Below, piece by piece: positions 1,307 to 13,185 of a stretch of DNA of 21,391 nt. The stretch's first letter is position 1, and each line of letters begins with the position of its first letter. Made by a program: the position numbers and the translations under genes. The DNA comes from a virus (lineage: Duplodnaviria > Heunggongvirae > Uroviricota > Caudoviricetes): positions 1-21,391 of the IMG/VR virus record IMGVR_UViG_2778261068_000006. One strand, written 5' to 3'. The notes below the pieces were generated by a model that saw only the letters and a program-made list of their open reading frames with translations, did not search any database and was not told where the DNA came from.

Positions 1307-3787
1307 TTAAAAATCAACCGGATTCGGGATCAGTTTTTGCCAGATTGCTGAAACGTATTTTGCCTGGTGACGGGCGTCATCCAGTGCATTGTGGCGAACG
1401 CCTTCGAATGGAATAACGGTTCCAGCATCAAAGTCGATTGTTTTTCCCAGCTCAACGATTGTGCGTACATCGCGATCGTTGTGGTAGCGCCACGGGCAGG
1501 GGATGTCCAGACGTTCGTATGAGGTGCGCAAAATTGCGTTATCGAAAGTTGCACCATTACCCCATACCTGAACGAATTTTTCATCTGAGTATTCGTTGAT
1601 GAACTCCCGAAACCGCGAAAGGGCATCCTTCAGTTTTACCTGGTCTGTTAAAATGGCAGCTCTGGCTTCACTGGACTGCTTCAGCCACCATTTGATGGTT
1701 CCACCGTCAGGAGCAGCCCCTGTATTCATTGCGTCAGTCAGACTGATAACGATATAAAATACTGGCCCGATTTCCCCTGTTTGTGGGTCGAAGAAAACCG
1801 CACCAATAACCACGATGGGCGCATTGGTGTTGGTTCCCATTGTTTCAAGGTCGATCATCAGGTGGTACCACACTCTGCTGGTGGATGTGATAACGTGATG
1901 ACCGTTCACCACAATTAAGGGATCTGCCGTCTCACCAGTTTCATTATCGCTGGCGTGGTCCTGAGCGCTGCCAGCATTCTCCTTGTGTGGATGTTCAGCG
2001 CCTTCCATTTCCTCCGGGTCATTTTCCTGAACTTCAACCTGATTCTCTTCATCGAATGTTTCCTGGTATGTTGCGTCGCCCATCACCGCGCCACAATCAG
2101 GGCAGTTGCCGCCACCGCTCTGACCGCAGGCGGTGCAGACTTTTTCCGGTTCCTGTTGCGCTACTGGCTCAGGTTGTTTCGTTTCTGGCTCGTTTTGTAA
2201 CGCATTTTGGCTGTTTTGTTCCGCTTTCTGGTCGTTCTGTTCCGATTCTTGCTGGTTCTGGTTTACAGAATCGCGGGTTTCAATCCCCTTCACCCATTTC
2301 GGATCATTCGGGTCGCTAATCCCTGCAACAAATTCTCCGCGAGAGGCAGCAAGCAACTTATCGGCGTCAGGCTGGCTGATATTGGCTGCCTGCATAATTT
2401 TGTTTACTTCGTCAGCGGTAACTTTTACCGGCTCTGGTTGTGCGGTCGTGTCAGATGCACCAGTATTTTGTTGTGAACCTGAGTACGTGCCGTTTTTACG
2501 GGCAAAATATTCTTCTTTCGTGATTTCAGTAGCCCCTGCAGCCAGCGCCTTATTCAGACCAGAAAGTTTGTTTGCACGACCATATTTTTCGCCATCCTTA
2601 TCGGTGAAGAGGAAGTAGAACGGCCCCTCACGCTCTACAGATGGTTCAGTTTCCAGCGCGCTTTCATTTTTTTGGGTATCAGATACTTCAGTTTCCACTG
2701 CATCAGTTTGTGCTGCTGACGGCTGGAGAATATCAGCAGTGCTCTGGTCTGTTTCTTCATCCTCAAACACGCCCTTTGTCGCCAGGTATTCAGTGATGTA
2801 TTTGTTCAGCGCCACGGGATCTTTGTGAATGTCGATCGGACGCTCACGGACAAGGCCAAAAATAGTCTGACGGTCGTAGCGAACGGCATCAGGTTGTTTG
2901 CGCATTGATGCGGAAATACGCTTCCAGTCTTCGCGATCTTTGTCGATAACCTCATTTTTTGCCCAGCGATGGATGCTGCCGTCAATGTTTCCGGCATCAA
3001 TATCACCAGGCCAGAAAGCGTAGGCCAGTTCTTCATCCAGTGTTTTCCATGTCTGCTTGTATTCGCGACGAATGACAGCAGTTACGGAGTCAGTTTTTCC
3101 TGCAGAGTTTTCAGTGCCTTGCCGGTTGACTCTGGCGCGGGCAAGATCGACGACGGAATTATATGCGCCACCTTCTTTGCGCTCCTTTTCCATGCGTTTT
3201 TTACGTTCGAGAAAATACGCCTGAACGTCGGGCCATTTGGCTGTTGGTTTTAAATCACGTCTGGCATCGTTGATGTACTCAATCTGACGCTCTGGATACA
3301 TGGCGTTAATTTCTCTGGTCCGGATAATTGCTTCAGCGAGGTGTCCATCAAAAGTCGTCATCTCGTCATCGCCGAGAAGCCCGCTTGCATTGATGACCAT
3401 ATCCACGGTGATGTTTTCATGTGTACCGAACCTGACAAGGACAGCAGCCCGCTTGTCTTCAGATAACTGATTAAAGTTAACAGTTTCTGTATCCGGTTCA
3501 GGGTCGACCGGAACAAAGGAAGCCGACTCCTCATTCCAGCGGTTTTCCTGCATATATTCGGAATCCCAGGAATCGAGAGCAGGGCGGGCCATGCCGGGTT
3601 TATCCTCGCAGACAAGAAATTTATAAGCACAGTCCTGAGCTTCCGGGTATTGTTCCAGAAATAACCAGCTAAATTTGGCTCTTGCCCGGCGTTCGTCGCC
3701 TGCTTCAATGGCAGTGGCCACAGGTTTGGCGCCTTCTGCTGTTGCCTGTTCGTCCGGAATGGCGGCGCAAATAAAGACTTTACTCAT
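1307..3787 (-). CDS. Large prophage exonuclease-like protein: C-terminal DnaQ-like DEDDh 3'-5' exonuclease domain, internal zinc ribbon, acidic Q/E/N-rich linker (resembles prophage 'exodeoxyribonuclease VIII-like' proteins)
   Basis: 826-aa ORF with SD (gagg) upstream; C-terminus has exonuclease motifs MIDLETMG (Exo I, D-x-E), WGNGATFDNAIL (Exo II), HNALDDARHQAKY (Exo III, H-x4-D); CTACGQSGGGNCPDCG zinc-ribbon motif; located in the lambda exo/bet position. Confidence 0.6.
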   Translation of the reverse strand: MSKVFICAAIPDEQATAEGAKPVATAIEAGDERRARAKFSWLFLEQYPEAQDCAYKFLVCEDKPGMARPALDSWDSEYMQENRWNEESASFVPVDPEPDTETVNFNQLSEDKRAAVLVRFGTHENITVDMVINASGLLGDDEMTTFDGHLAEAIIRTREINAMYPERQIEYINDARRDLKPTAKWPDVQAYFLERKKRMEKERKEGGAYNSVVDLARARVNRQGTENSAGKTDSVTAVIRREYKQTWKTLDEELAYAFWPGDIDAGNIDGSIHRWAKNEVIDKDREDWKRISASMRKQPDAVRYDRQTIFGLVRERPIDIHKDPVALNKYITEYLATKGVFEDEETDQSTADILQPSAAQTDAVETEVSDTQKNESALETEPSVEREGPFYFLFTDKDGEKYGRANKLSGLNKALAAGATEITKEEYFARKNGTYSGSQQNTGASDTTAQPEPVKVTADEVNKIMQAANISQPDADKLLAASRGEFVAGISDPNDPKWVKGIETRDSVNQNQQESEQNDQKAEQNSQNALQNEPETKQPEPVAQQEPEKVCTACGQSGGGNCPDCGAVMGDATYQETFDEENQVEVQENDPEEMEGAEHPHKENAGSAQDHASDNETGETADPLIVVNGHHVITSTSRVWYHLMIDLETMGTNTNAPIVVIGAVFFDPQTGEIGPVFYIVISLTDAMNTGAAPDGGTIKWWLKQSSEARAAILTDQVKLKDALSRFREFINEYSDEKFVQVWGNGATFDNAILRTSYERLDIPCPWRYHNDRDVRTIVELGKTIDFDAGTVIPFEGVRHNALDDARHQAKYVSAIWQKLIPNPVDF

Positions 3788-3879: not shown

Positions 3880-4071
3880 TTAAAGGCCTGCCGGGATTTC
3901 GTTATTGTTCATGCGAATAATTTTGTCGACAGGATAACAGTTCCCGGGAATTTTTTGCTCTGCCGCGGCAGTCATGCATTCTTCCATTGAGTCATGTATG
4001 TCAATAACAAGATCAATCGGTTCACCAGAAACAAAAAAAACAGTCAGAACGAGTACAAATGCCGTATTCAT
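3880..4071 (-). CDS. ydfD: YdfD-like small membrane lysis protein (Qin prophage family)
   Basis: 63-aa product MNTAFVLVLTVFFVSGEPIDL...GNCYPVDKIIRMNNNEIPAGL matches remembered E. coli YdfD; ATGA start/stop overlap with dicB at 4068-4071. Confidence 0.7.
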   Translation of the reverse strand: MNTAFVLVLTVFFVSGEPIDLVIDIHDSMEECMTAAAEQKIPGNCYPVDKIIRMNNNEIPAGL

Positions 4072-4256
4072 TGCCTGCATCCTGTTTGCATCAGACGTAA
4101 ACGGGCCAGCATCGAAACAATGCATATTTTATTTAGCAGTTCCTGTTCGTGTTTTCTTTTATTAATGGCATCTTCAGTAAATATCTGATTGCTGATAGTG
4201 ACACCAATTTCAAAACAACCTTCAGACGTATTAACGTTTGGTAATAACGTTTCCAT
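4068..4256 (-). CDS. dicB: DicB cell-division inhibitor (MinC-activating)
   Basis: 62-aa product METLLPNVNTSEGCFEIGVTISNQIFTEDAINKRKHEQELLNKICIVSMLARLRLMQTGCRQ closely matches E. coli K-12 DicB; SD gagga upstream; the longer 97-aa ORF in the track is an in-frame upstream extension. Confidence 0.8.
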   Translation of the reverse strand: METLLPNVNTSEGCFEIGVTISNQIFTEDAINKRKHEQELLNKICIVSMLARLRLMQTGCRQ

Positions 4257-4423
4257 TATCGCGTCCTCAACAATGAATTTTGTGATGCGGTGCCTGGTGC
4301 CTCCAGGTGACGTTAACCAGTTAACAATTAACGCCGGATACAGAGAATCCACCCATAACACTGTTTTTAGCTTTAACTGTTCCGCGTGCGCTTAGCCGCA
4401 TTCACCGCATCACAAAATTCACT

Positions 4424-4481
4424 TTAAAAAGGGCGGACATCAGTTCATGGGCAAACAGATGCCGCCAAACGTCACCAGAAA
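4424..4481 (-). ncRNA. dicF: DicF small RNA (ftsZ-targeting sRNA of the Qin dicB operon) with 3' intrinsic terminator
   Basis: Minus-strand sequence TTTCTGGTGACGTTTGGCGGCATCTGTTTGCCCATGAACTGATGTCCGCCCTTTTT matches the K-12 DicF sequence as I remember it (UUUCUGGUGACGUUUGGCGGUAUCAGUUUU...GCCGCCCUUUUU) with an identical 5' seed and a GGCGG/CCGCC hairpin plus U-tract; lies upstream of dicB as in Qin. Confidence 0.7.
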
Positions 4482-5378: not shown

Positions 5379-5492
5379 CGTGCGGTGTCTTGATGGAGAT
5401 TAATTTAGAATAACCTAACAAATGTGGCAAGTGTTTTTTGTTAGATTGGTCTAACAAAAAGAGTGAGGGAATCTAAGTATCTGAAAGGAGTG
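5379..5492. promoter_or_regulatory. Left operator/promoter region (OL/PL-like): two TTAG-N6-CTAA palindromes at 5405-5418 and 5441-5454
   Basis: Perfect 4+6+4 inverted repeats TTAGaataacCTAA and TTAGattggtCTAA, 36 bp apart, upstream of the leftward ydfA-dicF-dicB operon and downstream of the repressor gene. Confidence 0.5.
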
Positions 5493-5900
5493 TTATTTTA
5501 TTGATTTGTTTTTACGTGCTTTAAGCATTTCTTCGAAGAGTTTATTGAAATTCTCTACTCTTGCGCGCATTTCAGACAGTAAGGCTTCCTGCTCGGAGGA
5601 GGGAAGAGCATCGAATAATTCGATCAATTCTTTGTGGCTGGGAGTTAACTCGGTTTCCACATGAAGTTCTTGTGCTGGCACTGGTGCCTTGTCTTCGTCA
5701 CCAAACATTAGCCATGTAGGCGAGCACTTCAGCGCATCAGCTAAAGCAAATAACCGCTTCCCGACCGGTTGGGTTTCGTCTCTTTCCCATTGTGAAATTG
5801 TGACGTGAGCTACCCCAGCGAGGCGTGCAGCTTCTCGTTGTGTTAGGCGTAATTCTTTTCGTCGTGCCAGAACTCGCTGGCCTAGGGTTCTTGTATCCAT
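5493..5900 (-). CDS. dicA: Prophage repressor, HTH XRE family (DicA-like, cI functional analogue)
   Basis: 135-aa product; QREAARLAGVAHVTISQWERDETQP HTH; C-terminal ...CSPTWLMFGDEDK...EMRARVENFNKLFEEMLKAR matches remembered DicA (135 aa); divergent from dicC. Confidence 0.85.
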   Translation of the reverse strand: MDTRTLGQRVLARRKELRLTQREAARLAGVAHVTISQWERDETQPVGKRLFALADALKCSPTWLMFGDEDKAPVPAQELHVETELTPSHKELIELFDALPSSEQEALLSEMRARVENFNKLFEEMLKARKNKSIK

Positions 5901-5980
5901 AGTTAGGTAATTCTAATTTTTCTTGACTTAGGTATCCCGTGCACATTACTGTTAGGAATATCTAACAAGAGGGGGTTTTG
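5901..5980. promoter_or_regulatory. Immunity switch region (OR-like): two TTAG-N6-CTAA palindromes at 5903-5916 and 5952-5965 plus divergent promoters
   Basis: TTAGgtaattCTAA abuts the dicA start codon; TTAGgaatatCTAA lies 16 nt upstream of the dicC ATG; TTGACT -35-like hexamer at 5923-5928. Confidence 0.5.
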
Positions 5981-6208
5981 ATGCTTAAAGTTGACGCAAT
6001 TACTTTTTTTGGCAGCAAAACAAAACTTGCCAATGCCGCAGGAGTGAAACTGGCAAGTGTTGCTGCATGGGGGGAACTGGTTCCTGAAGGTCGCGCGATG
6101 CGCCTGCAAGAGGCATCCGGCGGGGAACTTCAGTACGACCCCAAAGTTTATGACGAATATCGTAAGGCAAAGCGGGCGGGGCGGTTGAACAATGAAAATC
6201 ACCCCTGA
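5981..6208 (+). CDS. dicC: Cro-like regulator DicC
   Basis: 75-aa product MLKVDAITFFGSKTKLANAAGVKLASVAAWGELVPEGRAMRLQEASGGELQYDPKVYDEYRKAKRAGRLNNENHP matches remembered DicC; SD gaggggg upstream; the track ORF starts 3 nt earlier at TTG. Confidence 0.8.
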   Translation: MLKVDAITFFGSKTKLANAAGVKLASVAAWGELVPEGRAMRLQEASGGELQYDPKVYDEYRKAKRAGRLNNENHP

Positions 6209-6713
6209 ACAGGTTTGTGAGGCTCTGGATGCCTGGGTATGCCGACCAGGAATGACACAGGAGCAGGCGACGATATTAATCACGGAAGCATTCTGGGCTC
6301 TGAAAGAACGCCCGAACATCGATGTTCAACGCGTCACGTTTGATGATGGCGCGGTTGATCAACGGGCGCTGGGCGTCAACCGGGTGAAGATATTCGAACG
6401 CTGGAAAGCTATCGACACCAGGGATAAGCGGGAAAAATTCACGGCGCTGATTCCGGCAATTATGGAGGCTATCCGGATCAGCGATTTCAGGTTGTATTGT
6501 GAAATTACTGACGGAAAAAGCATTACGTACATGATCGCCGGGTTAAACAAAGAATATGGCGATGTGGTGGAGTCCGGTCTGCTTTTGGCAGATCCTGCTG
6601 TTGTGGAGCGTGAGACTGACGAGCTTATAGAAAAAGCTATTGCTTTCAAGCATGCGTATCGTCAGCAATATCAACAAAAAGCCGGATGGAATTATGAGTC
6701 TTCTTTTTGCTGA
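6192..6713 (+). CDS. ydaT: YdaT-like protein (CII-like regulator/toxin family of Rac/CP-933P immunity regions)
   Basis: 173-aa ORF immediately after the cro-like gene; motif REKFTALIPAIMEAI resembles YdaT REKIQKLIPAILAIL; synteny repressor-cro-ydaT. Confidence 0.55.
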   Translation: MKITPEQVCEALDAWVCRPGMTQEQATILITEAFWALKERPNIDVQRVTFDDGAVDQRALGVNRVKIFERWKAIDTRDKREKFTALIPAIMEAIRISDFRLYCEITDGKSITYMIAGLNKEYGDVVESGLLLADPAVVERETDELIEKAIAFKHAYRQQYQQKAGWNYESSFC

Positions 6714-7659
6714 ACGCCCACTGGTTATTAACACGCAGCTGGCGATGAAAATTGGCCTGAATGAAGCCATTGTACTGCAGCAGCTGCATTACTGGTTGAG
6801 AGATACTAATTCCGGCATGGAATGTAACGGGGTTCGCTGGATTTATAACACAACAGAACAATGGCTGGAACAGTTCCCGTTCTGGTCAGAGTCAACGTTA
6901 AAACGCGCATTTGCAAGTCTGAAAACGCTGGGGCTTTTGCGTTGCGAAAAGCTCAACAAATCAAAGCGTGACATGACTAATTTTTACACGATTAATTACG
7001 AGAGTGAGCTTTTAGATGGTGGCAAAGTGAGCGAATCCATCAGGTCAAAATGCGCCGCTCCATCAGGTCAAAATGACACGATGGAAGAGGTCAAAATGGC
7101 ACGCTCCATTGGTTCAAAACGACCCAATGTCATCGGGTCAAAATGGCCTGATGATCTTACAGAGAATACAACAGAGATTACTACAGAGAATAAAAACACT
7201 TCTCGTCCGGAAGCTTCGCAACCGGACTCGCAGACGGCTGAACAGGATTTTTTAACCCGACACCCTGACGCGGTTGTGTTCAGTGCGAAAAAACGCCAGT
7301 GGGGAAGTCAGGAAGATTTGGCGTGCGCACAGTGGATCTGGGGACGAATCGTGAGTCTTTACGAGCAGGCTGCCAGCGATGATGGCGAGATCACGCGACC
7401 GAAAGAACCAAACTGGACCGCATGGGCCAATGATGTGCGCACAATGCGGATGCTGGATGGCAGAACTCACAGACAAATTTGCGAAATGTTTGGTCGGGTA
7501 CAGCGGGATCCATTCTGGGTAAAAAACGTCATGAGCCCGTCAAAGCTTCGTGAAAAATGGGATGAGCTGGTTATTCGTCTGGGGCGTCCGCCTGTACAGC
7601 GTTGTGTGAATCATATTTCTGAACCGGATACCGAAATTCCCCCAGGGTTCAGGGGGTAA
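6694..7659 (+). CDS. Replication initiation protein: N-terminal phage replisome-organiser-like DNA-binding domain, C-terminal DnaT (primosomal protein I)-like domain
   Basis: Start ATG 6694 preferred (MSLLFAERPL; the track ORF begins at 6640); C-terminus ...VNHISEPDTEIPPGFRG matches the E. coli DnaT C-terminus (...NTVSEPDSQIPPGFRG); iteron array lies inside the gene. Confidence 0.7.
   Translation: MSLLFAERPLVINTQLAMKIGLNEAIVLQQLHYWLRDTNSGMECNGVRWIYNTTEQWLEQFPFWSESTLKRAFASLKTLGLLRCEKLNKSKRDMTNFYTINYESELLDGGKVSESIRSKCAAPSGQNDTMEEVKMARSIGSKRPNVIGSKWPDDLTENTTEITTENKNTSRPEASQPDSQTAEQDFLTRHPDAVVFSAKKRQWGSQEDLACAQWIWGRIVSLYEQAASDDGEITRPKEPNWTAWANDVRTMRMLDGRTHRQICEMFGRVQRDPFWVKNVMSPSKLREKWDELVIRLGRPPVQRCVNHISEPDTEIPPGFRG
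7036..7145. repeat. Iteron array, probable phage origin of replication: five copies of GGTCAAAATG-like repeat at about 23-bp spacing
   Basis: Copies at 7043-7052, 7066-7075, 7089-7098 (ggtcaaaatg), 7111-7121 (ggttcaaaacg), 7136-7145 (gggtcaaaatg); first two share tccatcaggtcaaaatg; followed by A-rich stretch 7150-7200; embedded in initiator gene as for lambda ori in O. Confidence 0.65.
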
Positions 7660-7699
7660 GTGTTTATTTCGGGTCATGAGGTAATTTTCAGGAGGGCTT

Positions 7700-8122
7700 G
7701 TGGCAAAAGTATTTACACAAGAAGAGCGAGAAAAAATTAAAGGGCAGGTGGTGGAACTCGTGCGCCAGAGCGGTCGAGAGACGTTACGGCAACTGGAAGC
7801 TAAAACAGGTGCGACAAGATATCTGATGAGTGTTCTCGCCAGAGAGCTGGTTGCCAGTGGCGATGTATACAACTCCGGCTACGGGTTATTCCCGTCTGAA
7901 CAGGCGCGTAAGGACTGGCAAAACGCCCGCAAAAAACTCTCGAGGGCAAAGGTGAAGAAACCTGCTGTGGTTGATCTGGACCTTATCTGGTCATTTCCTG
8001 ACGGAGAAATACGTCGCTACGACAGTCGTCTAAACATAATCTGTAGCGAGTGCCGTAAGAGAGAAGTGATGAAGCGTGTACTGATGTTTTATCGAGGAAA
8101 TATCCAGAAATTTGTTCGGTAA
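7700..8122 (+). CDS. Hypothetical protein (possible HTH; CxxC near C-terminus)
   Basis: 140-aa ORF, GTG start with strong SD aggagg at 7691-7696; no recognisable family. Confidence 0.55.
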   Translation: MAKVFTQEEREKIKGQVVELVRQSGRETLRQLEAKTGATRYLMSVLARELVASGDVYNSGYGLFPSEQARKDWQNARKKLSRAKVKKPAVVDLDLIWSFPDGEIRRYDSRLNIICSECRKREVMKRVLMFYRGNIQKFVR

Positions 8123-8259
8123 GCAAAATCAAAATGTAATAGCTCAAGTTTAAGTTGGTGTATCTACGGCGCAGAGCCATCGCCTCATCTGGCACTGCGC
8201 TAAAATCAAATTTTAGTTCCACTCTTTATTTGGTATCTGCTAAAACGCTACATAAGATT

Positions 8260-8532
8260 TTACTTTTTTAAAGAATAAGGGAATATGTGCACCATATTGG
8301 AGGCTAGTGGATATATTCCTATGCCACGAGTTGTCTTTTTTAGTTGATCTATGCTTGCTCCTTGATCGGGAGCTTGGCCTCCCCACACTGTAACCCCCTC
8401 AGGTATATCAATTGGGCGACTTTTGTTTTCATCTGTGATTTCAATAGTTTCTCCATTATTAAGTGTAATAATCAACGATGACACGTCTAGGTGTTGTGTA
8501 TTCCCATTTTTATTTTTAATGTCTATTTTCAT
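8260..8532 (-). CDS. Hypothetical protein in AT-rich island
   Basis: 90-aa ORF in markedly AT-rich segment (about 8123-8880); no clear SD; coding status uncertain. Confidence 0.3.
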   Translation of the reverse strand: MKIDIKNKNGNTQHLDVSSLIITLNNGETIEITDENKSRPIDIPEGVTVWGGQAPDQGASIDQLKKTTRGIGIYPLASNMVHIFPYSLKK

Positions 8533-8898: not shown

Positions 8899-9387
8899 AG
8901 TGATGGAGACTCTTCAGGCCTCAGGAATCGAGAACAACACGGTGTAGCGTTTATCGATGCTGATTACGACACTGACAACTGGTTTGAGCGAGCCAAAGGA
9001 ATGGAATGGGAGACCGAACGTGGGAGGCGTTGTACTATGTGTTTTGACATGCGTTTTGAGCGGACAGCGCTGTACGCCGCTGAAAATGGTTTCAGTGTGA
9101 TCAGCAGTTCACTGGGCATTTCACGCTGGAAAAATATGCAGCAGGTTAACGACTGCGGACGGCGAGCTGTCGCACATTATCCGGGAATTGTGTACTGGGA
9201 TTATAACTGGCGCAAGCAGGGGGGCTTGTCCCGCATGATTGAAATCAGCAAACGCGAACAATTCTATCAGCAGGAATATTGTGGCTGTGTGCATTCTCTG
9301 CGCGATACCAATCTACACCGCAAATCTCAGGGACGCCCTCTTATCAAAATTGGTCAACTCCACTACGGTAAAGAAGAGAAGGAGTGA
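8899..9387 (+). pseudogene. Probable 5'-truncated gene fragment encoding a Cys-rich protein (CxxC ... CGC motifs); family uncertain (possibly DUF208/QueH-like, unverified)
   Basis: Open frame runs from 8899 to stop at 9387 but the first start codon is ATG 9001; upstream in-frame sequence ([20 protein letters not shown]) looks coding yet has no start; abrupt AT-rich junction at about 8880. Confidence 0.4.
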
Positions 9388-9580
9388 TTTTATGGATCAC
9401 CTTTCTGATTGATTTCATATTGGCGAGGTTACGGGAGTTAAGTAGAATTGCTGCGGGTGCTTGAGGCTATCTGTCTCAGGCATGAATGCCAAAAGGCAGA
9501 TAGAGAAAAGCCCCAGTTAACATTACGCGTCCTGCAAGACGCTTAACATTAATCTGAGGCTCAATCTATGAACGGCAAAT

Positions 9581-10654
9581 CTAGGTTAGCCTCTTACGTG
9601 CCGAAAGGCAAGGAGTTGTATGGGTCCACCACATATTGCAATTTTTGTTCTCTCTTAAAATATATTCCACGGGTGTCATTAGCGCGAGCGCCTTATGGGG
9701 CCTTTTGCTGTTATACAGCACCAGATATTCCGCCAGCTTCTGATTAAATAGCGCCAGATCTTCAAAGAGTAAAATCTCATTAAATTCAATAAACTGCTCT
9801 CTTAACGTCCGGTTAAAACGTTCACAGATAGCGTTCATTTTTGGCGTGTAGGGATAGGTCCAGAGGTGTTTGATAGCGGCTTCCTGCAGCGTTTTGTCGA
9901 AGTTTCCCAGGAACTCTTTTCCGTTATCTGTGATTATCTGGCTGATACCGACCGGGAACAACCGGGCTGCGCGGCTGAAGAAGTGATTGACGATATCACT
10001 GTTGAGTGACGGCACAGCCAGCGCCAGCGCGTAATTGCTGCATTCGTCGATCATGGTGATGACATAGCGACGCAGTTCGCCCATTCTGAGCTCAATGGCG
10101 TCCATCCCAATGAGCTCACCTGTCTTTACCGGGCGATAGTGCTTTGGCCTGCGGGGTTTGGCAGACCGCTTTTTGACAAGCAGTGCCTTCCCCCGCGATC
10201 CCAGACGCACAGGTATCATCCGCATTTTATCATGTGCGGCAGCGATCATTCTGCCGATGGTGGAAACACTCGGACAGGCCAGATAGCGCTGTTCGCACCA
10301 GGGCTTCAGGCGAACAAAAATCTGCTCTTTACCGAGGTTCGGCAGCTCTGTCCTGAGGCGTCGAATCTCTTTCAGCACATCGGGATGCCAGTGTTTTTTT
10401 CGTCGCACCAGAGGTGCCTTACTGTGCGGGATTAGCCCCTCAGGTCCTTCCTTGTTCAGTAACTGACGCCACCAGTAAAGCGTGCGGCAGGACACGCCAA
10501 AGGCTTCAGAAGCCGCAGAAATACCGTGTTTATCCCAGAAGTGCAGAGCCTTCATTCTCATTGTTGCTGTATCAGCCATCACTGAAAGCCTCAACGCATA
10601 ATCGGCCGTTTGGTAGTACTTAGGATAGCCAACCATCAGATGCTGCATTTGCAT
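9581..10654 (-). CDS. DDE transposase (HTH + rve integrase-core), IS481-family-like
   Basis: 357-aa ORF; HTH GISAASEAFGVSCRTLYWWRQ; catalytic triad candidates D (MIDECS), D (ITDNGKEF), E (NAICERFNRT); likely true start at internal Met (MADTATMRMK, about 10579). Confidence 0.8.
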   Translation of the reverse strand: MQMQHLMVGYPKYYQTADYALRLSVMADTATMRMKALHFWDKHGISAASEAFGVSCRTLYWWRQLLNKEGPEGLIPHSKAPLVRRKKHWHPDVLKEIRRLRTELPNLGKEQIFVRLKPWCEQRYLACPSVSTIGRMIAAAHDKMRMIPVRLGSRGKALLVKKRSAKPRRPKHYRPVKTGELIGMDAIELRMGELRRYVITMIDECSNYALALAVPSLNSDIVNHFFSRAARLFPVGISQIITDNGKEFLGNFDKTLQEAAIKHLWTYPYTPKMNAICERFNRTLREQFIEFNEILLFEDLALFNQKLAEYLVLYNSKRPHKALALMTPVEYILRENKNCNMWWTHTTPCLSARKRLT

Positions 10655-12819: not shown

Positions 12820-13185
12820 ATGACTGAACGCATAGAATTTGCTTTGCCTTACCCGCCGACGGTGAATACCTACTGGCGACGTCATGGCAATACGTATTTC
12901 ATCTCGGAGGCGGGAAAGCGTTATCGCCGTGATGTGGCGCTAATTGTTCGCCAGCAGCGGCTGAAATTAAACCTGTCCGGAAGGCTGGCGATAAAGATTA
13001 TTGCAGAGCCACCGGATAAGCGCCGTCGTGACCTGGACAATATCCTGAAAGCACCACTGGATGCGCTGACGCATGCCGGACTACTCATCGACGACGAGCA
13101 GTTTGATGAAATCAATATTGTGCGCGGTCAGCTCGTTCCTGGTGGGCGGCTGGGGATAAAAATCACAGAACTGGAGTGCGCATGA
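12820..13185 (+). CDS. rusA: RusA Holliday-junction resolvase
   Basis: 121-aa product; PYPPTVNTYWRRH, PDKRRRDLDNILKAPLDALT and GGRLGIKITELE align to E. coli RusA (PWPPSNNRYYRH..., [31 protein letters not shown]). Confidence 0.9.
   Translation: MTERIEFALPYPPTVNTYWRRHGNTYFISEAGKRYRRDVALIVRQQRLKLNLSGRLAIKIIAEPPDKRRRDLDNILKAPLDALTHAGLLIDDEQFDEINIVRGQLVPGGRLGIKITELECA

What the first reader, a model, noticed from the sequence alone, without database searches (positions are those of the whole stretch)
7036..7200. Five-copy iteron array (GGTCAAAATG, about 23-bp period) inside the initiator gene, followed by an A-rich stretch
Directly seen: repeats at 7043, 7066, 7089, 7111 and 7136, the first two sharing a 17-mer, then an A-rich segment at 7150-7200. 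Established knowledge: lambda's ori is four iterons plus an AT-rich region inside gene O. Inference: this is the phage origin; the repeats also encode a repeated peptide (SGQN/SKRP) in the initiator's linker.
Basis: partly seen in the sequence, partly recalled or inferred. Interest (0 to 1): 0.5.

Follow-up and report, generated by a model that had tools for sequence, protein, structure and literature searches.

The report
Phage replication origin inside initiator gene
The repeats are very probably the replication origin of a lambda-like prophage, sitting inside the gene for the protein that binds it; this layout is textbook, but the DNA-binding domain, its one-residue reading of the repeats and a second conserved 12-base repeat appear not to have been described.

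Summary
There are five 23-bp units at 7038-7153, four of them with an exact GGTCAAAATG found nowhere else in the window, plus a degenerate sixth unit at 7020. They lie in the linker-coding part of a 321-aa "O-like" initiator gene (6694-7659). The "A-rich stretch" is really three 12-bp repeats, ACAGAGAnTACw, at 7159-7194, followed by a GC-rich palindrome. This is the same order of elements as in lambda's origin.

The C-terminal domain is homologous to that of lambda O. The N-terminal domain is a different winged helix with no Pfam model. About 80 relatives, from Enterobacteria to Firmicutes, carry 22-24-bp palindromic iterons at the same place.

One residue (S67 here) tracks the base next to the invariant CA of the iteron half-site: S→T, K/R→A, D→G, N→C. 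It switched independently several times and largely held in 14 phage isolates not used to derive it.

The iterons are read in all three frames, and synonymous sites in the 12-mers are fixed, so selection acts on the DNA.

Verdict: a lambda-type origin, a new member of a known kind. Origin activity is inferred, not shown. There is no P/DnaC-like gene, and the initiator ends in a DnaT-like tail.

The parts
6694..7659 (+). Initiator gene (321 aa, 'O-like'). It has an N-terminal winged-helix domain, an origin-encoded disordered linker, a lambda-O-like C-terminal domain and a DnaT-like tail.
   Evidence: ORF and translation. phrog_391 'replication initiation O-like', E 1.7e-95. No Pfam family at E<=0.01. 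AlphaFold: residues 85-174 have pLDDT<50.
6694..7017 (+). Coding region of the N-terminal winged-helix domain (about residues 1-108). The predicted recognition helix is residues 66-78, and S67 is the specificity residue.
   Evidence: AlphaFold with a 78-sequence alignment: pLDDT 85.3, topology H-H-beta-beta-H-H-beta-beta. Foldseek top matches are all winged-helix DNA binders, including the staphylococcal RepA NTD-iteron complex 5kbj/4pql, at E about 0.01 and TM about 0.5. Residue 67 against iteron base: mutual information 1.86 bits.
7020..7032 (+). Degenerate iteron 0 (TGGCAAAGTGAGC), in register 23 bp upstream of iteron 1.
   Evidence: The same position is GGTCAAAGTGACC in L010 and L016.
7038..7153 (+). 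Array of five 23-bp iterons. The 13-bp cores are at 7043, 7066, 7089, 7112 and 7136, with consensus GGTCA-AAA-TGACC, an imperfect palindrome.
   Evidence: Units 2, 4 and 5 match their own reverse complement at 16 of 23 positions.
7159..7194 (+). Three tandem 12-bp repeats (ACAGAGAATACA / ACAGAGATTACT / ACAGAGAATAAA). This is the A-rich, least stable part of the gene and the candidate DNA-unwinding and helicase-entry element.
   Evidence: (0.74 expected, 4 found, 3 of them here). Conserved in 56 of 82 loci at about 26 times background. Synonymous sites are fixed.
7205..7227 (+). GC-rich inverted repeat GTCCGG-N11-CCGGAC. Its position corresponds to the palindrome TCAGAG-N14-CTCTGA to the right of lambda's AT-rich region.
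   Evidence: Sequence. The hairpin is predicted on both strands. Lambda comparison. Relatives have GGTTGCG..CGCAACC here. Function not tested.
7192..7192 (.). Mosaic junction. The N-module (N-domain, iterons and 12-mers) and the C-module (palindrome and C-domain) are exchanged here between phages.
   Evidence: Klebsiella phages match only window 6751-7192, while six E. coli phages match only 7192-7568. PhiR49_1 sequence.
7132..7575 (+). Region aligning to the lambda O C-terminal part (aa 147-294). The folded domain is about aa 183-295.
   Evidence: BLASTP against lambda O: 36% identity, E 2e-28. Helices at 183-295.
7597..7656 (+). C-terminal 20 residues QRCVNHISEPDTEIPPGFRG, resembling the extreme C-terminus of E. 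coli DnaT.
   Evidence: phmmer against PDB 2ru8/6aep/9zbt, E 0.015-0.04: 14 of 20 residues identical to 2ru8, both ending in IPPGFRG at the C-terminus. NCBIfam DnaT, E 0.005, far below its cut-off.

Best explanation
This is the replication origin of a lambdoid (Qin/mEp460-type) prophage, embedded in its own initiator gene.

Shown from sequence:
- The gene encodes an N-terminal winged-helix domain, a disordered linker and a lambda-O-type C-terminal domain.
- The linker-coding DNA carries, in order, 5-6 phased 23-bp dyad-symmetric iterons (GGTCA-AAA-TGACC), three 12-bp repeats (ACAGAGAnTACw) in the least stable stretch, and a GC-rich palindrome.

Inferred mechanism:
1. Dimers of the initiator bind each iteron through the helix at residues 66-78. 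Residue 67 reads the base pair just outside the invariant CA/TG.
2. The phased array, with central A-tracts and about two helical turns per unit, assembles an O-some-like nucleoprotein complex.
3. On supercoiled DNA this complex opens the adjacent 12-mer region.
4. The 12-mers are a sequence-specific element tied to the N-domain, not just AT-rich DNA. Most likely they are held as single strands by an invariant part of the initiator. This step is the least certain.
5. The C-terminal domain and the DnaT-like tail then bring in the host DnaB/DnaC machinery directly, because no P, DnaC or helicase gene is present.
For: (1) The array is real and non-random.

(2) The host gene is an initiator: phrog_391, E 1.7e-95, and its C-domain is homologous to lambda O, E 2e-28.

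(3) The order of elements is the same as in the annotated lambda ori.

(4) Position is conserved. In most of the roughly 80 loci with this N-domain, and in nearly all the proteobacterial ones, the strongest 15-45-bp periodicity directly 3' of the N-domain is 22-24 bp. These loci span Enterobacteria, Pseudomonas, Acinetobacter, Comamonas, Staphylococcus, Lactobacillus and Clostridia. The units are palindromes NNNCA-AWW-TGNNN.

(5) Protein and DNA co-vary. Residue 67 against base 3 of the half-site runs S/A/T/M/E/P→T, K/R→A, D→G, N→C, with mutual information 1.86 bits. The switches are scattered over a neighbour-joining tree built without that column, which points to several independent changes. 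On 14 phage isolates fetched afterwards: D→G 4/4, N→C 3/3, S→T 1/1, R→A one clear and one mixed, K one mixed.

(6) Selection acts on DNA.
- Iterons are read in three frames.
- Conservation by codon position is 0.75/0.84/0.45 in the N-domain. It is flat at 0.71/0.74/0.68 in the iterons and 0.95/0.72/0.86 in the 12-mers.
- In the T-E-x-T repeats Glu is GAG 115/115 (44% elsewhere) and Thr is ACA 103/103 (26% elsewhere).
- In 11 of 58 loci the 12-mer copies are in different frames.

(7) The N-domain, iterons and 12-mers are inherited as one block, with a junction at about 7192.

(8) The N-domain folds as a winged helix, pLDDT 85.

(9) The 12-mer region is the least stable 40-mer of the ORF and is predicted unstructured as a single strand.

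(10) Isolated phages carry this module at 91% identity: HannyBb, PhiR42_1 and mEp460_ev081. In HannyBb, the one whose neighbourhood I read, no other replication gene is annotated nearby.
Against: There is no experimental evidence for binding, unwinding or origin activity in any member of this family. I found no paper on it.

The covariation rests on a simple consensus of half-sites. Some members are mixed: Bacillus phage BhaS-171 (K with mostly GGTCA) and Vibrio F23s1. The right half-sites in this window are poorly conserved (TGCGC, TGACA, TGGCA, CGACC, TGGCC).

The 12-mer region is only moderately AT-rich (32-35% GC), and in Pseudomonas relatives it is ACAGAGACTAC. Passive melting alone is therefore a weak explanation, and the single-strand-binding idea is untested.

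This particular prophage carries an IS element and gene fragments, so the origin may be unused here.

Helicase recruitment through the DnaT-like tail is speculation. The papers I read do not assign a function to that tail.
Confidence: 0.85

Rival explanations
1. The repeats are a protein feature: a repeated peptide or low-complexity linker selected at the amino-acid level. On this view the DNA repeat is merely its shadow.
For: The array lies wholly inside an ORF and encodes a disordered linker. The 12-mers usually read T-E-x-T. The linker peptide is conserved among close homologs.
Against: The 23-bp period puts the same core in three frames, giving RSKC, GQND, VKMA and so on. The iterons show no codon-position pattern of conservation. 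Synonymous sites of the 12-mers are fixed: GAG 115/115 and ACA 103/103. In 11 of 58 loci the 12-mers sit in mixed frames, and L055 uses all three.
Confidence: 0.02
2. The iterons do bind the initiator, but they serve control rather than initiation. Possible roles are autoregulation or attenuation of the gene, copy-number 'handcuffing', or a decoy that excludes related phages. The real start site would then lie elsewhere.
For: Plasmid iterons have such control roles (established knowledge). Cloned lambda ori iterons inhibit related phages (PMC3349717 abstract). The covariation shows co-evolution consistent with direct binding, not initiation.
Against: The iterons are always followed at 8-11 bp by the conserved 12-mer, low-stability element and then the palindrome, the same tripartite layout as the functional oriλ. 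I did not look for a second cluster elsewhere in the window, but the exact core occurs nowhere else in it. In lambda the same elements are the origin (PMC7466680).
Confidence: 0.06
3. The sequence is a genuine origin by type but a dead relic in this window. The prophage is defective, so the element has no present function.
For: An IS (rve transposase, 9581-10654) lies in the early-right region, next to or overlapping the end of a sok RNA at 9455-9622. A QueH fragment lies at 9001-9387. The equivalent BL21 Qin prophage is clearly decayed, with a frameshifted integrase and a truncated exonuclease. Some relatives have lost four iterons (290-aa variants) or have a frameshifted gene (L014).
Against: The initiator ORF is intact and 97% identical to a cluster of 3,664 member sequences. 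The window keeps four exact cores and all three 12-mers. Its integrase, exonuclease, repressor, Q and terminase-region ORFs are full length. Isolated phages carry the same module.
Confidence: 0.15
4. The A-rich 12-mer segment is only a passive AT-rich unwinding element like lambda's. Its sequence conservation would then reflect shared ancestry, not a specific interaction.
For: It is the least stable 40-mer of the ORF. Lambda's corresponding region is AT-rich and needed for unwinding (PMC7466680).
Against: The motif CAGAGAnTAC is kept at near-invariant positions from Enterobacteria to Staphylococcus, Lactobacillus and Clostridia, while the flanking iterons and C-domains change. GC-richer variants (ACAGAGACTAC) keep the motif rather than the AT content. 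It is absent from origins with the same C-module but another N-domain: PhiR49_1 and lambda.
Confidence: 0.25

Closest known systems
oriλ inside gene O of phage lambda
   Same: The origin lies in the linker-coding middle of the initiator gene. It has tandem, phased, imperfectly palindromic iterons with a central A-tract (lambda TCCCTCAAAACGAGGGA, here GGTCAAAATGACC). They are followed in the direction of transcription by an A-rich low-stability region and then a palindrome. The initiator C-domain is homologous, 36% identity, E 2e-28.
   Different: The N-terminal DNA-binding domain is not homologous and gives no PF04492 hit. There are 5-6 iterons of 23-bp period, against 4 at 20-24 bp. The A-rich region is a sequence-specific 12-bp repeat. 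No P gene follows. The protein ends in a DnaT-like tail that lambda O lacks.
Origins of Stx phages 933W and P27 (six iterons)
   Same: These are lambdoid origins with more than four iterons. The extra iterons add residues to the O linker and are needed for replication (PMC7466680). The iteron-number variation seen here (290-aa variants lacking 93 bp, which is four units) is of the same kind.
   Different: The Stx O proteins are close relatives of lambda O and work with P. This one has a different N-domain and no P.
Other lambdoid O modules with the same C-module, e.g. Escherichia phage PhiR49_1 'DNA replication protein O'
   Same: The C-domain, palindrome and IPAGFRG tail are shared (78% nucleotide identity from window 7192 onward). 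The origin lies in the linker.
   Different: It has a different N-domain, 15-bp-period iterons (TCAAAATCTGAC) and no CAGAGA 12-mers. This shows that the iterons and 12-mers belong with the N-domain.
RepA_N-type initiators of staphylococcal plasmids (pSK41 / pTZ2162 RepA; PDB 4pql, 4pt7, 5kbj)
   Same: The N-domain is a winged helix that binds iterons. These are among the best structural matches. From my own knowledge, their origin also lies inside the rep gene.
   Different: There is no detectable sequence similarity: they are absent from the profile search of PDB at E<=10. The structural match is weak (E about 0.01, TM about 0.5) and no better than to MarR/PadR-type regulators.
Repeated elements in unwinding regions that initiators hold as single strands (oriC 13-mers and DnaA-trios; 13-mers of RK2 oriV bound by TrfA)
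   Same: Short direct repeats lie immediately beside the initiator's double-strand binding sites, in the region that melts. This is a working analogy for the 12-mers, drawn from my own knowledge.
   Different: There is no evidence here for single-strand binding. The period (12 nt), the sequence and the protein family are all different.

Membership tests
Lambda-type origin (ori inside the O-type initiator gene) | The origin lies within the initiator ORF, between the N-terminal DNA-binding and C-terminal domains. | tested here: met
   The array at 7038-7153 encodes residues about 116-153, inside the disordered segment 85-174 that separates the folded domains.
Lambda-type origin (ori inside the O-type initiator gene) | Four or more tandem iterons, each an imperfect inverted repeat. 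| tested here: met
   There are 5 units plus 1 degenerate unit. The consensus is GGTCA-AAA-TGACC, and units 2, 4 and 5 are 16/23 self-complementary.
Lambda-type origin (ori inside the O-type initiator gene) | An AT-rich, easily melted region adjoins the last iteron on the downstream side. | tested here: met
   7153-7197: 32-35% GC, and the least stable 40-mer of the ORF at 2.4 SD from the window mean.
Lambda-type origin (ori inside the O-type initiator gene) | The initiator binds the iterons. | not testable with these tools
   Support is indirect. Residue 67 of the predicted recognition helix co-varies with iteron base 3, with several apparently independent switches, and the rule largely held on a fresh set of 14 phages.
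Lambda-type origin (ori inside the O-type initiator gene) | The initiator C-domain is of the lambda O type. | tested here: met
   BLASTP against lambda O residues 135-270: 36% identity, E 2e-28.
Lambda-type origin (ori inside the O-type initiator gene) | The initiator N-domain belongs to the lambda O family (Pfam Phage_rep_O). | tested here: not met
   There is no Pfam hit at E<=0.01 and no N-terminal alignment to lambda O. Members give only sub-threshold hits to generic winged-helix families.
Lambda-type origin (ori inside the O-type initiator gene) | A partner helicase-loader or helicase gene (lambda P, P22 gp12, DnaC-like) lies downstream. | tested here: not met
   The next gene is DUF977. 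None of the larger ORFs between 3880 and the Q gene at 13176 that I scanned matches a helicase or loader family. HannyBb has the same layout.
Lambda-type origin (ori inside the O-type initiator gene) | The fragment supports initiator-dependent replication. | not testable with these tools
   No experiment was possible, and no paper on this family was found.
RepA_N / DnaD-like winged-helix initiators | Sequence membership (Pfam RepA_N or DnaD_N at the curated threshold). | tested here: not met
   Only 7 of 63 members touch DnaD_N, at E>=0.033, and RepA_N is not among the 25 families listed. The PDB profile search does not recover 4pql or 5kbj.
RepA_N / DnaD-like winged-helix initiators | Winged-helix fold of the N-domain comparable to the RepA NTD. 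| tested here: inconclusive
   The model has pLDDT 85. 4pql and 5kbj rank 3-5 at E about 0.01 and TM about 0.5, no better than AbfR2 or MarR-type regulators.
Single-strand-bound repeats of unwinding regions (DnaA-trio or 13-mer type) | Short direct repeats flank the double-strand sites, in the melted region. | tested here: met
   Three 12-mers start 11 bp after the last iteron core, in the least stable segment, and are predicted unstructured as a single strand.
Single-strand-bound repeats of unwinding regions (DnaA-trio or 13-mer type) | The initiator binds one strand of the repeats specifically. | not testable with these tools
   This is inference only. The 12-mers travel with the N-domain and not with the C-domain.

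The most novel reading that the evidence does not exclude
The N-domain, iterons and 12-mers form a portable, cross-phylum origin cassette with two readable parts.

(a) A one-residue code. Position 67 of the recognition helix sets iteron specificity (S→T, K/R→A, D→G, N→C), which would allow origin specificity to be predicted and re-engineered.

(b) A conserved 12-nt repeat, ACAGAGAnTAC, that is not a passive AT-rich region. On this reading it is a sequence-specific element held, probably as single-stranded DNA, by an invariant and aromatic-rich surface of the same domain. It would mark where the helicase enters, a phage counterpart of DnaA-trios.

In the branch seen here the initiator may also dispense with a loader protein, using a DnaT-like C-terminal tail to tap the host machinery.
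Probability: 0.35. Interest if true: 0.7.

Novelty: new member of a known kind. Interest (0 to 1): 0.42.

Why it matters
As a bare finding it is ordinary: lambdoid phages keep their origin inside gene O.

It still matters in three ways.

1. The initiator here is labelled "hypothetical protein" by RefSeq and has no Pfam family. Yet most of the gene is present in 1,849 of 5,426 complete E. coli genomes, including the Qin prophage of BL21. Recognising the gene and its origin improves prophage annotation and predictions of replication incompatibility and exclusion.

2. The tight link between one residue and one iteron base gives a directly testable rule for how mosaic phages keep initiator and origin matched.

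3. The 12-bp repeat is conserved from Proteobacteria to Firmicutes, with variants in Bacteroidota phages. This suggests a sequence-specific step in origin opening that the lambda model does not include.

Tried and rejected
- Pfam, NCBIfam and a PDB sequence search of the whole protein gave nothing except the 20-residue DnaT-like tail.
- AlphaFold on the full length with 11 close homologs was poor (pLDDT 53.6). I redid the N-domain alone with 78 diverse sequences.
- A PDB profile search with the N-domain alignment gave only sub-threshold PadR-type hits.
- Rfam at gathering thresholds finds no RNA family in the origin.
- The promoter and terminator scan of 5400-8300 found no more sites than in shuffles, and none in the origin.
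- A literature search for the exact iteron and 12-mer strings returned only estrogen-response-element papers, because GGTCAnnnTGACC coincides with that element. Three topical searches found no study of this initiator family.
- The viral-contig scan returned only near-identical relatives (94-100%), useless for testing the covariation. I used 14 phage isolates instead.
- Papers on DnaT did not assign a function to its extreme C-terminus, so the tail's role stays open.
- I rejected a peptide-repeat origin, because of the reading frames and the fixed synonymous sites.
- I rejected operators for the DicA/Cro-like regulators, because the covariation is with the initiator itself.
- A recent slippage duplication is ruled out by the cross-phylum conservation.
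Full report
**1. The observation**

The region holds five direct copies of a 23-nt unit at 7038, 7061, 7084, 7107 and 7131, spaced 23, 23, 23 and 24 bp. Tandem Repeats Finder independently calls 7023-7145, period 23, 5.3 copies.

- The 10-mer GGTCAAAATG occurs exactly four times, at 7043, 7066, 7089 and 7136. It occurs nowhere else on either strand of the window.
- The fourth unit carries the variant GTTCAAAACG at 7112.
- With two mismatches allowed the window-wide count equals the chance expectation (27 against 26.9). The signal is therefore the phased cluster of exact copies.
- A sixth, degenerate unit (TGGCAAAGTGAGC at 7020) is in register. Relatives have a good copy there.
- Each unit is an imperfect palindrome. 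The 13-bp consensus is GGTCA-AAA-TGACC, and units 2, 4 and 5 match their own reverse complement at 16 of 23 positions.

The "A-rich segment" is real: 32% GC, AT skew +0.47, and the least stable 40-mer of the ORF at -44.3 kcal/mol against -54.6 +/- 4.2 for the window. However, it consists of three 12-bp repeats, ACAGAGAATACA, ACAGAGATTACT and ACAGAGAATAAA, at 7159-7194. A GC-rich inverted repeat, GTCCGG-N11-CCGGAC, follows at 7205-7227.

**2. The host gene and its setting**

The array lies in ORF 6694-7659 (321 aa).

- PHROGs places the protein in phrog_391, "replication initiation O-like" (E 1.7e-95). Pfam finds nothing.
- Residues 147-294 align with the C-terminal part of lambda O (36% identity, E 2e-28). 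The N-terminal part does not align.
- Upstream lie a DicA-like repressor, a P22-Cro-like gene and a YdaT/CII-like gene. Downstream lies a DUF977 gene.
- The window also holds an integrase, a RecE-like exonuclease, RusA, DUF968 and Q. It is a lambdoid prophage.
- Its nearest isolated relatives are phages HannyBb, PhiR42_1 and mEp460 (91% identity).
- Most of the gene is present in 1,849 of 5,426 complete E. coli genomes, where it is annotated "hypothetical protein". In BL21 it sits in the Qin prophage.
- None of the larger early-region ORFs I scanned matches a helicase or helicase-loader family. HannyBb likewise has none annotated nearby.

**3. Direct comparison with lambda**

I fetched the annotated lambda ori. 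It has four iterons (for example ATCCCTCAAAACGAGGGA), then an A-rich tract, then the palindrome TCAGAG-N14-CTCTGA, all in the middle of gene O. The window has the same three elements in the same order and the same position in the gene. Its iterons also have a central A-tract.

The literature states that lambdoid origins lie in the middle of O. They consist of O-binding iterons (19-bp imperfect inverted repeats) plus an AT-rich tract needed for unwinding (PMC7466680).

**4. Comparative evidence that the repeats are functional DNA**

A scan of one genome per species found 80 loci encoding the N-terminal ~110-residue domain. Hosts run from Enterobacteria to Pseudomonas, Acinetobacter, Comamonas, Photobacterium, Staphylococcus, Bacillus, Lactobacillus and Clostridia.

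In most of these loci, and in nearly all the proteobacterial ones, the strongest 15-45-bp periodicity directly after the N-domain coding part is 22-24 bp. The units are palindromes of the form NNNCA-AWW-TGNNN whose outer bases differ between clades: GGTCA, GGACA, G(G/T)GCA, GATCA, TATCA, ACCCA.

Selection acts on the DNA, not the peptide:

- The five units here are read in frames 2, 1, 0, 2, 2.
- Across 13 relatives with GGTCA iterons, conservation by codon position is 0.75/0.84/0.45 in the N-domain. It is flat, 0.71/0.74/0.68, across the iterons.

**5. Evidence that the initiator's own N-domain reads the iterons**

With a 78-sequence alignment the N-domain folds confidently (pLDDT 85.3) as a winged helix, with the presumed recognition helix at residues 66-78. 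All top structural matches are winged-helix DNA binders, including the staphylococcal plasmid RepA N-domain bound to iteron DNA. The scores are modest, though (E about 0.01, TM about 0.5).

One alignment column stands out: residue 67, at the start of that helix and next to invariant T68 and R71. It predicts the base just 5' of the invariant CA of the half-site:

| Residue 67 | Base 3 of the half-site |
|---|---|
| S (also A, T, M, E, P) | T |
| K or R | A |
| D | G |
| N | C |

- The mutual information is 1.86 bits, far above any other column.
- On a neighbour-joining tree built without that column, the classes are interspersed. K/R, D, S and N each appear in several separate clades, Gram-positive and Gram-negative.
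- I then fetched 14 phage isolates not used to derive the rule. The result was D→G 4/4, N→C 3/3, S→T 1/1, R→A one clear and one mixed, and K one mixed. A Flavobacterium phage showed a new pairing, H→G.

This is strong indirect evidence for direct recognition. It is not a binding experiment.

**6. The second element**

The 12-bp repeat wACAGAGAnTACw begins 8-11 bp after the last iteron in most loci. It is present as two to five phased copies in 56 of 82 loci, at about 26 times the background density.

It usually reads T-E-x-T, but the DNA is what is conserved:

- Within these repeats Glu is GAG 115/115, against 44% elsewhere in the same ORFs.
- Thr is ACA 103/103, against 26% elsewhere.
- Copies fall in different frames in 11 of 58 loci.
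- Third-codon positions are 0.86 conserved.

The motif persists while iteron class and C-terminal domain change. The C-domains found with this N-domain are Phg_2220_C in 24 of 60 loci, DnaB_2 in 4, DnaT in 1, DnaA_N in 1, and the lambda-O type, which has no Pfam model.

The motif is missing from origins with the same C-module but another N-domain. These are PhiR49_1, which has 15-bp iterons TCAAAATCTGAC, and lambda.

BLAST boundaries put the mosaic junction at window ~7192, exactly at the end of the 12-mers. So N-domain, iterons and 12-mers are one co-inherited cassette.

The segment is predicted to be unstructured as single-stranded DNA, with a hairpin just downstream.

**7. Mechanism**

*Shown.* The anatomy, the conservation, the DNA-level selection, the covariation and the homology of the C-domain.

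*Inferred.*
- Initiator dimers bind the phased iterons and build an O-some-like complex.
- That complex opens the adjacent 12-mer region on supercoiled DNA.
- The 12-mers are probably a sequence-specific element tied to the N-domain, possibly held as a single strand. A purely passive AT-rich region remains possible (my estimate 0.25).

*Speculative.* With no P or DnaC gene, the host helicase would be recruited directly. The last 20 residues (QRCVNHISEPDTEIPPGFRG) closely resemble the extreme C-terminus of E. coli DnaT. The tail ending IPxGFRG is kept in 10 of 11 aligned homologs. The tail together with the DUF977 gene start is shared at 89-94% identity between otherwise different O genes. The DnaT papers I read give no function for that tail.

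**8. Rivals**

- A peptide-level repeat is excluded by the frames and the synonymous sites.
- A control-only role for the iterons is unlikely given the lambda-like tripartite layout, but it cannot be excluded without origin mapping.
- The element may be a relic in this prophage, which carries an IS element and gene fragments. Against that, the initiator ORF and all the repeats are intact here.

**9. Verdict**

The thing is a lambda-type origin, a new member of a known kind. The textbook part, an origin inside O, is not surprising.

The parts worth follow-up are these:
- the unmodelled winged-helix initiator domain;
- its one-residue recognition rule;
- the cross-phylum 12-bp repeat;
- the loader-less layout with a DnaT-like tail.

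I found no paper describing any of them. That search covers only the held open-access library.

Noticed in passing
window 7597-7656 (+), with the next gene at 7700-8122: The initiator's last 20 residues (QRCVNHISEPDTEIPPGFRG) resemble the extreme C-terminus of E. coli primosomal protein DnaT. This is probably why some phage records call homologs 'Primosomal protein I'. The tail, the intergenic region and the start of the DUF977/LygF gene are shared at 89-94% identity among otherwise different O genes. No P/DnaC/DnaB-like gene was found in the early region.
   Followed up: partly
P0018-P0020, P0022 and P0023 (290 aa) against window 7038-7131: Some E. coli homologs lack exactly 31 residues, which is 93 bp or four iteron units. 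This looks like recombination between iterons 1 and 5 and leaves a single iteron. The unit lengths 23+23+23+24 sum to a multiple of 3, so the frame is kept.
   Followed up: partly
L014 (Shigella flexneri), about 4001-4480: The initiator gene is riddled with stop codons and frameshifts, yet the iteron array and the three CAGAGA 12-mers are still recognisable.
   Followed up: no
window 2183-2257: A tandem repeat of period 21, 3.5 copies (consensus TTCTGGCTCGTTTTGTTCCGCA), lies inside the RecE-like exonuclease gene (1307-3787, minus strand). Because 21 is a multiple of 3, it could be a peptide repeat.
   Followed up: no
window 9455-9622 (+) and 9581-10654 (-): A sok antitoxin RNA (Rfam RF01794, 105.8 bits) overlaps the end of an IS-type transposase ORF (rve domains). 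A truncated QueH-like ORF lies at 9001-9387. This suggests an IS insertion at or beside a hok/sok locus and some decay of the prophage.
   Followed up: no
P0004, P0007 and P0008 (448 aa): In some genomes the YdaT/CII-like gene and the initiator are called as one 448-aa protein carrying PF06254. In this window the two ORFs overlap by 20 nt (6192-6713 and 6694-7659). This may reflect a frameshift fusion or an annotation artefact.
   Followed up: no
L175 (Vibrio phage 1.091.O) and L178 (Flavobacterium phage elemoE), about 100-200 nt after the N-domain: Distant members carry a variant of the second repeat, ACCAGATGTAAACACAGATGTAAT or ACCAGATATAAACACAGATATAAAT, after their iterons. The two-part cassette therefore appears to extend to Bacteroidota phages.
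   Followed up: partly
alignment A4: The same N-domain is fused in different phages to Phg_2220_C, DnaB_2 (DnaD-like), a DnaT DNA-binding domain, DnaA_N or the lambda-O C-domain. Most of these are domains linked to replication initiation or helicase loading, so this looks like a modular 'origin reader plus recruiter' design.
   Followed up: partly
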